DNA of 64,000 bases, taken from the NCBI RefSeq assembly GCF_024502345.1, contig NZ_JALDNN010000001.1, one strand, 5' to 3'. Positions 9,091 through 9,944 of the stretch are shown here, piece after piece (the stretch's first letter is position 1; every line of letters begins with the position of its first letter). The translations under genes and the position numbers were made by a program. This DNA comes from Escherichia coli. Lineage in GTDB: Bacteria; Pseudomonadota; Gammaproteobacteria; Enterobacterales; Enterobacteriaceae. The notes beneath the pieces are model-generated. The model ran no database searches. It had not been told where the DNA came from and saw nothing but the letters and a program-made list of their open reading frames with translations.

Positions 9091-9507
9091 CTATCTGGTA
9101 CTGCAGCAGTAGTTTCTCTGCCAGTGCGCTTCTTCGATGCTGTAGATACCAGTCAGACACCGGGGACAGTGCTTCACGCCCTGGTAATGGTCGCCGCACC
9201 ACACGCAGTACCAGGAGAGCACCATTACCGTCGCTTCCAGCCCGTTGATGAGACTGCGCAGCTTTCGGTGCCGGGCTTCGGTTTTCACTTCCGGGTCAAG
9301 GTGGGCGCAGGCCATCAGCACATGCCGGGCCACGCTCTGCTGGTCATGTTCAAACCACGGCGGCTCCCCGTATGTCCCCGCATGGAGCACCAGTCGACAG
9401 CCGCAGGACGCGCAGCTCCATATCTGCCCCGGCGCACTCACGGCCTCCCCGGCTGTCGCGAAGTGGCCTTCGCGGTCATTGGCCAGATAACATTTCAGCA
9501 TGCGCAT
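9091..9507 (-). CDS. cysteine-rich protein, paralog of 9495..9944 (putative zinc-binding)
   Basis: Shared motifs PWFEH and C-x2-C…C-x2-C (WYCVWCGDHYQGVKHCPRC) with the neighbour. Confidence 0.5.
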   Translation of the reverse strand: MRMLKCYLANDREGHFATAGEAVSAPGQIWSCASCGCRLVLHAGTYGEPPWFEHDQQSVARHVLMACAHLDPEVKTEARHRKLRSLINGLEATVMVLSWYCVWCGDHYQGVKHCPRCLTGIYSIEEAHWQRNYCCSTR

Positions 9508-9944
9508 GCCGTCACTTCCTCTATCCGGTTGGTATCAGCACGCACATCACTGTGCTCGCCCGTCCGGCAGGTGAGGCAGTAGCGCTCACCGTGGTAATCA
9601 CTGCCGCAGCCGTGACAGTGCCAGTCTGCGTAGAAAACCAGGGGACGGGCTTCCGGTACATAAGACTGCAGTTGCCGGATATGGCGGGTCTCCCTCACCC
9701 CGGGCTTTACATACGGGCAGTGCTGTCGACCGTTCTCCGAAAGCTTTGCTGCATGATGTTCAAACCACGGACGTTCGGTGTCGTATTCAGGATGGTACTG
9801 CAGGGCACTGGCACACAGATGGCAGCTGTAGCGGTCATACGGCGCGGTCTGCGCGGTTATGGCTCCCGTGAGACGGCCGTTGCCGTCCAGAGCCATAAAC
9901 GATTTTGCATACATAGTGGTACTCTCCTTACCGCCAGACGACAC
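9495..9944 (-). CDS. cysteine-rich protein, paralog of 9091..9507 (putative zinc-binding)
   Basis: RPWFEH, WHCHGCGSDYHGERYCLTCRTG; overlaps the downstream paralog by 13 nt. Confidence 0.5.
   Translation of the reverse strand: MSSGGKESTTMYAKSFMALDGNGRLTGAITAQTAPYDRYSCHLCASALQYHPEYDTERPWFEHHAAKLSENGRQHCPYVKPGVRETRHIRQLQSYVPEARPLVFYADWHCHGCGSDYHGERYCLTCRTGEHSDVRADTNRIEEVTACAC

What the first reader, a model, noticed from the sequence alone, without database searches (positions are those of the whole stretch)
9091..9944. Tandem paralogous cysteine-rich proteins with a shared PWFEH motif
Two adjacent, slightly overlapping genes (138 and 149 aa) share PWFEH and paired C-x2-C / H motifs, suggesting zinc-binding domains. 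They sit between alpA and a YagK-like gene; function unknown to me.
Basis: seen in the sequence. Interest (0 to 1): 0.4.

Follow-up and report, generated by a model that had tools for sequence, protein, structure and literature searches.

The report
Tandem zinc-ribbon genes of island module
The two overlapping cysteine-rich genes are real, intact paralogues of a catalogued but uncharacterised enterobacterial family ("putative zinc ribbon protein", DUF7828 + Zn_ribbon_11) that always sits beside the AlpA regulator and a Rep-like DNA-nicking enzyme in CP4-57-type genomic islands, so they are common rather than exotic, although their function is still unknown.

Summary
On the minus strand lie ZnA (9495..9914, 139 aa; the 149-aa GTG start is an over-extension) and ZnB (9091..9507, 138 aa). 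They overlap by 13 nt, are 33% identical (E 8e-20), and both carry PWFEH and three C-x2-C pairs. Both pass Pfam DUF7828 and Zn_ribbon_11 and are already in RefSeq as "putative zinc ribbon protein". No paper, solved structure, defence model or phage family covers them.

Conserved ligands predict two zinc sites: a CCHC finger related to the CoiA N-terminal finger, and a C4 ribbon. Both copies are under purifying selection (dN/dS 0.12-0.20).

In every contig examined the genes lie on the same strand next to AlpA and a YagK/YfjJ ("inovirus Gp2") gene, which I show to be a HUH Rep-type nuclease. In seven independent tandem arrays the "MYAKSF" type comes first.

My best guess, at low confidence, is that they are zinc-finger cofactors of the island's HUH nuclease, under AlpA control.

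In passing I found an unannotated 37-44-aa stand-alone ribbon ORF directly after alpA. Its DNA is present in about 2,580 E. coli genomes.

Verdict: a catalogued family of unknown function, of modest interest.

The parts
9495..9914 (-). ZnA: upstream paralogue, 139 aa, 'A type' (MYAKSF...ALDGNGRLTGA), with DUF7828 and Zn_ribbon_11 domains
   Evidence: ORF; SD plus ATG; Pfam DUF7828 E 8.7e-30 and Zn_ribbon_11 E 7.8e-11; RefSeq WP_016154451.1; dN/dS 0.12-0.19 against four orthologues
9091..9507 (-). ZnB: downstream paralogue, 138 aa, 'B type' (MRxLKCYLAN...TGIYSIE), with DUF7828 and Zn_ribbon_11 domains. Its start lies 13 nt inside ZnA, which suggests translational coupling.
   Evidence: ORF; Pfam DUF7828 E 4.3e-33 and Zn_ribbon_11 E 2e-18; RefSeq WP_009652429.1; dN/dS 0.20 against L002_B; AF2 model with N-domain pLDDT about 90
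10052..10186 (-). Unannotated 44-aa micro-ORF encoding a stand-alone C4 ribbon, homologous to the C-terminal ribbon of ZnA/ZnB. It starts 18 nt after the alpA stop, with a GGGAGGA SD 8 nt upstream.
   Evidence: Weak Zn_ribbon_11 hit; family-profile hit E 1.6e-5 against all six-frame segments of the window; a conserved second copy at about 30807..30917 and in other E. coli islands
10204..10443 (-). AlpA-family HTH regulator, directly upstream in the same orientation
   Evidence: Pfam Phage_AlpA E 1.3e-8; RefSeq annotation
10596..11165 (-). YagK/YfjJ ('inovirus Gp2 family') protein: a HUH Rep-type nuclease with intact HUH (KKHYHAVLLLN) and Y-L-x-K motifs
8449..9015 (-). Second, degenerate YagK/YfjJ-like paralogue 75 nt downstream of ZnB. 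The HUH and catalytic Tyr are replaced (ECK / VHVK), so it is presumably inactive as a nuclease.
   Evidence: Pfam YagK_YfjJ_C E 0.0022; BLASTP to the Gp2-like protein E 4e-8; A3 profile E 2.3e-45 (though this sequence is itself a row of A3, so the match is partly by construction); motif loss in A3
7767..8372 (-). DUF2913 protein, the last gene of the same-strand array
   Evidence: Pfam DUF2913 E 4.9e-20, PHROG 15786

Best explanation
ZnA and ZnB are two intact, anciently duplicated members of the enterobacterial DUF7828 + Zn_ribbon_11 family. Each is predicted to hold two structural zinc ions: an N-terminal CCHC finger (C-x2-C ... WFEH ... C) related to the N-terminal finger of the competence nuclease CoiA, and a C-terminal C4 ribbon (W-x-C-x2-C-x3-Y-x-G-x3-C-x2-C). 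They are core genes, not cargo, of the 'HUH nuclease (YagK/YfjJ) - AlpA - zinc ribbon' module found in CP4-57/CP4-44-type integrative islands. They are co-oriented with alpA and probably translated as a coupled pair. Inferred mechanism: they act as small zinc-finger cofactors or adaptors of the island's HUH Rep-like nuclease and its inactive paralogue. They would target or regulate nicking at an island origin during replication or mobilisation after AlpA-triggered excision. ZnA would be the conserved core partner and ZnB a diversifying specificity subunit. What is shown: paralogy, family membership, the ligand pattern, purifying selection, the strict gene neighbourhood, and the HUH nature of the neighbour. 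What is inferred: zinc binding, any physical interaction, and the role in replication or mobilisation.
Against: There is no direct evidence of interaction, DNA binding or metal content. ZnA and ZnB are near-neutral (pI 6.5 and 7.6; family median 7.6), which is not what a general nucleic-acid binder looks like. Many islands have the YagK/YfjJ-AlpA pair without any DUF7828 gene: K-12 CP4-57 and module 2 of this window. The proteins are therefore dispensable for whatever the HUH protein does. The P0215 fusion is seen on a single 4.8-kb contig and could be an assembly or frameshift artefact. P0341 and P0352 are partial-domain chimeras that look like deletions. The C-terminal domain of the AF2 model is poorly defined (pLDDT 50-68), and no structural neighbour was found.
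Confidence: 0.35

Rival explanations
1. They are transcription cofactors that work with AlpA, functionally like the small zinc-finger activators Ogr (P2) and Delta (P4). They would bind RNA polymerase or AlpA to switch on island genes such as the integrase.
For: They lie immediately downstream of and co-oriented with alpA in the window, L007, L011, L012, L013, L014 and L018. They are small near-neutral zinc proteins, which fits protein-protein contacts. From my own knowledge, P4 Delta is a tandem duplication of an Ogr-like finger, which parallels the tandem copies here.
Against: There is no Pfam similarity to Ogr_Delta or any other transcription-factor family. In L002/L004, L016 and L023 the genes follow the HUH gene rather than alpA. 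The one fusion found is to a HUH paralogue, not to AlpA.
Confidence: 0.2
2. They are anti-defence, defence or host-takeover proteins carried at the edge of the variable cargo region of the island. An example would be small zinc proteins that inhibit a host or phage nuclease.
For: They sit at the boundary between the conserved island genes and variable cargo that is often defensive: type I RM in L002, Kiwa in L018 and L022. The downstream copy diversifies strongly (three or more sequence types). The islands also carry antirestriction genes.
Against: There were no PADLOC hits, no PHROG hits and no phage-genome hits. Their position relative to AlpA/HUH is fixed while the cargo changes, which is core-gene behaviour. 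The A type is highly conserved (60-74% identity across distant islands, dN/dS about 0.15), unlike typical arms-race genes.
Confidence: 0.12
3. They are RNA-binding post-transcriptional regulators, functionally like Mu Com or RanBP2-type fingers, that control translation or stability of island mRNAs.
Against: All these similarities are below significance. No member hit Pfam Zn_ribbon_RanBP among the top families. The full-length proteins are not basic.
Confidence: 0.08
4. One or both copies are decaying, functionless remnants of a duplication.
For: In other E. coli islands the downstream copy is truncated or frameshifted: L002/L004 (104 aa plus a 37-aa piece) and BL21 (cut by IS2).
Against: In this window both are full length against the family profile. 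dN/dS is 0.12-0.20. The start/stop overlap and order are conserved across distant islands.
Confidence: 0.03

Closest known systems
Pfam DUF7828 (PF25165) + Zn_ribbon_11 (PF11682, formerly DUF3279); NCBI PGAP name 'putative zinc ribbon protein'
   Same: Both window proteins pass both models well above the gathering scores. They are identical to RefSeq WP_016154451.1 and WP_009652429.1.
   Different: Nothing differs: this is the family. It has no assigned function and no paper in the searched library.
CoiA competence nuclease, N-terminal zinc finger (Pfam CoiA_N, PF25164)
   Same: Both have a short N-terminal finger with C-x2-C followed by an aromatic-x-His motif (WFEH here). Ten of 48 family members hit CoiA_N at E<=0.1, and P0207 scores 30.6 bits, above the 26.3 cut-off. 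In CoiA, and in the P0215 fusion, the finger precedes a nuclease domain that acts on single-stranded DNA.
   Different: The window proteins themselves do not reach CoiA_N at E<=1. They lack the PD-(D/E)XK nuclease and the CoiA C-terminal domain, carry an extra C4 ribbon, and are encoded in mobile islands rather than in competence regulons.
N-terminal zinc-binding domains of HUH enzymes such as IS91-family and Helitron transposases (comparison from my own knowledge)
   Different: Here the zinc module is normally a separate polypeptide, present in one to three copies. No sequence similarity to those zinc domains was detected.
P2 Ogr / P4 Delta zinc-finger transcription activators (comparison from my own knowledge)
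   Same: Small Cys4 zinc proteins of mobile elements. Delta is a tandem duplication.
   Different: There is no Pfam Ogr_Delta hit. The Cys spacing, genetic context and two-domain architecture all differ.

Membership tests
Pfam DUF7828 (PF25165) | Score above the gathering cut-off (25.7 bits) over the whole 87-position model | tested here: met
   ZnB 113.3 bits (model positions 1-86) and ZnA 102.7 bits (1-86)
Pfam Zn_ribbon_11 (PF11682) | Score above the gathering cut-off (24 bits), with four Cys in C-x2-C ... C-x2-C | tested here: met
   ZnB 66.2 bits and ZnA 41.9 bits. C101, C104, C114 and C117 are at least 90% conserved in 48 members.
DUF7828/Zn_ribbon_11 family | Actual binding of zinc at the two predicted sites | not testable with these tools
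   Only the ligand pattern is available.
CoiA (competence protein) | CoiA_N zinc finger (PF25164) at the N-terminus | tested here: inconclusive
   There is no hit for the two window proteins at E<=1, but 10 of 48 family members hit at E<=0.1 and P0207 passes the cut-off.
CoiA (competence protein) | Central PD-(D/E)XK nuclease domain (PF06054) and CoiA C-terminal domain | tested here: not met
   The proteins are 138-139 aa and are fully accounted for by DUF7828 plus the ribbon. No such Pfam hits were found.
RanBP2-type zinc finger (PF00641) | W-x-C-x2-C-x3-N-x6-C-x2-C and a profile match | tested here: not met
Ogr/Delta zinc-finger activators (PF04606) | Profile match with C-x2-C-x22-C-x4-C spacing | tested here: not met
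   No hit, and the spacing differs.
Known anti-phage defence systems (PADLOC-DB 2.0) | Match to any component model | tested here: not met
   No families at E<=1 for ZnA, ZnB or their neighbours.
HUH endonuclease superfamily (applies to the neighbour 10596..11165, not to ZnA/ZnB) | HUH metal-binding motif, catalytic Tyr (Y-x-x-K) and the HUH fold | tested here: met

The most novel reading that the evidence does not exclude
ZnA, ZnB and the unannotated micro-ribbon ORF after alpA are dedicated zinc-finger subunits of a so far unrecognised HUH-nuclease-based replication or mobilisation machine. That machine would drive the spread of CP4-57/CP4-44-type islands, which are present in most E. coli genomes. 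ZnA would be the invariant core and the variable downstream copy would determine origin or partner specificity.
Probability: 0.25. Interest if true: 0.55.

Novelty: already known. Interest (0 to 1): 0.3.

Why it matters
CP4-57/CP4-44-type islands are among the commonest accessory elements of E. coli and its relatives, and they carry resistance, defence and toxin-antitoxin cargo. How they replicate or move after excision is not understood. The zinc-ribbon genes belong to a conserved HUH-nuclease/AlpA module, and relatives of ZnA are detectable in 3,760 of 5,426 complete E. coli genomes. Assigning them a role would fill in a piece of a very widespread mobile-element core. As it stands, the finding re-discovers a catalogued domain-of-unknown-function family. 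The added value of this work is the context: the HUH partner, the fixed A-then-B order, the similarity to the CoiA finger, and the overlooked micro-ORF.

Tried and rejected
- NCBIfam, PADLOC and PHROGs scans gave nothing for ZnA or ZnB.
- A PDB sequence-profile search gave no hit better than E 0.28.
- Literature searches for DUF3279, DUF7828, PF11682, 'putative zinc ribbon protein', YagK, YfjJ and DUF2913 found no functional study.
- tblastn against 50,697 phage genomes gave no match, so a phage or satellite structural role is unlikely.
- The deep HMM search found only 254 clusters in 1.8 billion representatives and no informative distant relatives. The long hits P0185 and P0234 are repetitive zinc-finger proteins, not homologues.
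- I examined P0341 and P0352 (YagK/YfjJ plus ribbon in one protein) as possible fusions. I rejected them as evidence because only partial domains are present and the clusters have a single member, so they look like deletion chimeras.
- P0215's C-terminal region shows no direct BLASTP similarity to window 8449..9015. The link goes only through its own neighbouring YagK/YfjJ.
- A search for hairpins or inverted repeats that could be a HUH nick site, in 9900-10210 and 11150-13320, found nothing convincing.
- The promoter/terminator scan was no better than shuffled sequence.
- A protein search with the 44-aa micro-ORF found no cluster.
- The pseudogene hypothesis was rejected for this window.

Full report
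**1. What is there**

Two ORFs lie on the minus strand. ZnB is 9091..9507 (ATG, 138 aa). ZnA is 9495..9944 if read from the first GTG (149 aa).

The ATG at 9914 is preceded by AAGGAGAG. It is the start used in RefSeq, and it gives the N-terminus 'MYAKSF' shared by orthologues. ZnA is therefore 139 aa.

ZnB starts 13 nt before the ZnA stop, behind a GAGGA-type Shine-Dalgarno sequence. The two proteins align over 128 residues at 33% identity, E 8e-20. Both carry PWFEH and three C-x2-C pairs.

**2. Family**

Both proteins pass two Pfam models far above their cut-offs:
- DUF7828 (PF25165): 113 bits for ZnB and 103 bits for ZnA.
- Zn_ribbon_11 (PF11682, formerly DUF3279): 66 and 42 bits.

The 7.7-11.3 kb segment of the window is 100% identical to E. 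coli EH09-18-41 (NZ_CP063503), where the genes are WP_016154451.1 and WP_009652429.1, both named 'putative zinc ribbon protein'. NCBIfam, PADLOC and PHROGs have nothing for them. No PDB sequence is related. No paper in the library mentions the family names.

A full HMM scan of 1.84 billion representative proteins found only 254 clusters, nearly all 120-160 aa. The named close relatives are Enterobacterales. The family is narrow but abundant:
- DNA similar to ZnA occurs in 3,760 of 5,426 complete E. coli genomes, with a median of two copies, always annotated 'putative zinc ribbon protein'.
- The particular B type of this window occurs in only 100 of those genomes.
- The identical module also sits on about 15 large Klebsiella, Raoultella and E. 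coli plasmids and next to TEM-1 on pMB18312_1.
- No phage genome carries it.

**3. Anatomy of the proteins**

In an alignment of 48 diverse members, the positions that are invariant or at least 90% conserved fall into two groups:
- C32, C35, F52, H54 and C67. This predicts an N-terminal CCHC site: C-x2-C, then about 16 residues, W-F-E-H, then about 12 residues, C.
- C101, C104, G110, C114 and C117. This predicts a C-terminal C4 ribbon: W-x-C-x2-C-x3-Y-x-G-x3-C-x2-C.

At the sequence level, 10 of 48 members also match Pfam CoiA_N at E<=0.1, and one (P0207) exceeds its gathering score. The N-terminal finger is therefore probably related to the 'putative C2H2 zinc finger' at the N-terminus of the transformation ssDNA endonuclease CoiA (bioRxiv 10.1101/2024.02.06.579203).

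The window proteins themselves do not reach CoiA_N, and they lack the nuclease domain. They are not CoiA family members.

The proteins are near neutral: pI 6.5 for ZnA, 7.6 for ZnB, and a family median of 7.6.

**4. Are both copies functional?**

Both cover the family profile end to end. Nei-Gojobori dN/dS is 0.12-0.19 for ZnA against four orthologues and 0.20 for ZnB against its closest orthologue.

In some other islands the downstream copy is broken: L002/L004 are frameshifted, and BL21 is cut by IS2. That is not the case here.

**5. Genomic context**

All the following genes are on the minus strand, listed in the direction of transcription:
- a hypothetical gene (11337..11705)
- the YagK/YfjJ 'inovirus Gp2 family' gene (10596..11165)
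- the AlpA-type HTH (10204..10443)
- a 289-nt gap
- ZnA and ZnB
- a weak YagK/YfjJ-like gene (8449..9015)
- DUF2913 (7767..8372)

On the other side, a divergent gene set continues in EH09-18-41 into the typical CP4-type core: DUF932, antirestriction, RadC, YeeU/CbtA, DUF957 and DUF4942.

I sampled 12 further independent contexts, from close E. coli relatives down to members about 25% identical. In every contig with upstream sequence, the DUF7828 gene or genes lie on the same strand directly after one of two genes:
- AlpA, which is itself preceded by a YagK/YfjJ gene: L007-10, L011, L012, L013, L014 and L018-20.
- The YagK/YfjJ gene itself: L002/L004, L005, L016 and L023. In L003 a partial hypothetical ORF lies between the two.

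BL21 (L026) holds a decayed remnant with a truncated second copy and no AlpA or HUH gene nearby.

What lies beyond the zinc-ribbon genes differs each time: type I RM, ars genes, Kiwa, a sigma-54 activator, or efflux genes. These genes therefore behave as core genes rather than cargo.

Copy number ranges from one to three DUF7828 domains. P0121 has two in one chain, after a separate A-type gene.

In all seven independent tandem arrays the first gene is the conserved 'MYAKSF...ALDGNGRLTGA' A type (60-74% identity between distant islands). The second is one of at least three divergent types. The stop/start overlap (13, 4 or 1 nt) recurs in six of the seven.

This pattern indicates an old duplication with division of labour and coupled translation.

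**6. The partner gene**

It is therefore a small HUH nuclease.

The paralogue just downstream of ZnB (8449..9015) aligns with it (E 4e-8). It has lost both the two histidines and the tyrosine, so it is presumably a non-catalytic derivative.

One family member, P0215 (454 aa), is a complete zinc-ribbon protein fused to a full-length YagK/YfjJ paralogue with a degenerate HUH. That paralogue is itself homologous to the YagK/YfjJ gene next door (E 5e-23). This arrangement mirrors the ZnB to 8449..9015 adjacency in the window.

The fusion is seen on one short contig only, so I treat it as suggestive. Two other apparent fusions (P0341, P0352) contain only partial domains and look like deletions.

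A related class of Pseudomonas islands also has alpA and a Gp2-like gene together as core genes (bioRxiv 10.1101/2024.08.29.610337).

**7. How it most likely works**

*Shown:* two paralogous proteins with predicted double zinc sites, under purifying selection, co-oriented and probably co-translated, and always encoded beside AlpA and a HUH nuclease.

*Inferred (confidence about 0.35):* they are zinc-finger adaptors or cofactors of the HUH nuclease and its dead paralogue. They would help it find or act on its DNA substrate, or recruit a host factor, when AlpA activates the island for excision followed by replication or mobilisation.

Three things support this reading: the CoiA-type finger preceding an ssDNA nuclease, the P0215 fusion, and the strict neighbourhood.

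Three things count against it. The proteins are not basic. Many islands, including K-12 CP4-57 and the second module in this window, have the HUH-AlpA pair without them. There is also no direct evidence for any interaction.

The rivals are:
- AlpA-linked transcription cofactors (0.2)
- anti-defence or defence proteins at the cargo edge (0.12)
- RNA-binding regulators (0.08)
- decaying remnants (0.03)

**8. Noticed on the way**

The 289-nt gap between alpA and ZnA contains an unannotated 44-aa ORF (10052..10186, SD GGGAGGA). Its sequence '...PVRWTCPRCRRQYCGARPCPVC...' has exactly the ribbon spacing of the family. It scores E 1.6e-5 against the family profile among all 1,934 six-frame segments of the window.

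A second alpA-like gene at about 30.9-31.15 kb is followed by a homologous 37-aa ORF, 'MKRVVMPVRCQCAKCRRWYCGNQPCPWCWRHSRSSFC'. DNA similar to that copy is present in 2,579 of 5,426 E. coli genomes. In three diverged islands the ORF and all four Cys are intact. It is only occasionally annotated, for example as the 41-aa WP_001342704.1.

This micro-protein is a stand-alone relative of the C-terminal ribbon and is very basic (pI about 10). A strict regular expression for the ribbon motif hit only DUF7828 genes and these micro-ORFs, in all the roughly 250 kb of loci then held.

**9. Novelty and verdict**

The proteins and their family are already catalogued in Pfam and RefSeq, but nothing is known of their function. 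The finding is real and correctly read by the first stage. It is a common island gene pair, not a new kind of system.

The context worked out here gives a testable hypothesis: the HUH partner, the fixed A-then-B order, the similarity to the CoiA finger, and the micro-ORF. Interest is 0.3.

Noticed in passing
window 10052..10186 (-) and about 30807..30917 (-): An unannotated micro-ORF of 44 and 37 aa lies directly after each alpA-like gene. It encodes a stand-alone, very basic C4 zinc ribbon with the same spacing as the ZnA/ZnB ribbon. DNA similar to the second copy is present in 2,579 of 5,426 E. coli genomes, and the ORF is intact in three diverged islands. It is rarely annotated.
   Followed up: partly
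window 29434..32597 (-) and 38217..38948 (-): The window holds a second island-type module: YagK/YfjJ with an intact HUH (32031..32597), a 196-aa gene (31213..31803), an AlpA-like gene, the micro-ORF, a degenerate YagK-like gene (30146..30688) and a 219-aa gene. It contains no DUF7828 genes. There is also a third YagK/YfjJ gene at 38217..38948.
   Followed up: partly
window 8449..9015 (-): The YagK/YfjJ-like gene after ZnB has lost the HUH histidines and the catalytic tyrosine, so it is a presumably non-catalytic paralogue of the HUH nuclease at 10596..11165.
   Followed up: partly
window about 6100..18500 versus the rest: The window is colinear and 100% identical with E. coli EH09-18-41 only from about 6.1 kb to about 18.5 kb. 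The flanks differ, so the window is a mosaic. The 18.5-30 kb stretch matches E. coli regions annotated as SNF2, DEAD-box helicase, AIPR, methyltransferase and Abi genes, which look like defence-type cargo.
   Followed up: partly
window 7700..11300; plasmid hits H16-H28, L017: The Gp2-AlpA-ZnA-ZnB segment is 100% identical on about 15 large (0.2-0.48 Mb) Klebsiella, Raoultella and E. coli plasmids. It also lies next to TEM-1 on E. coli plasmid pMB18312_1, where the downstream part is cut off.
   Followed up: no
window 10555..10572 (-): A terminator-like GC hairpin followed by a T-run lies between the Gp2-like gene and alpA. This suggests that alpA and the zinc-ribbon genes may be transcribed separately from the HUH gene, or by read-through or antitermination.
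   Followed up: no
window 9091..9120 and 9495..9515 (C-termini of ZnB and ZnA): Both proteins end in extra cysteine pairs ('NYCCSTR' in ZnB, 'TACAC' in ZnA). These recur in many but not all relatives. They could be a third metal or redox site.
   Followed up: no
L018-L020 (P0121) and L005 (P0215): Relatives exist with two DUF7828 domains in one chain (238 aa), and with a full zinc-ribbon protein fused to a YagK/YfjJ paralogue (454 aa).
   Followed up: partly
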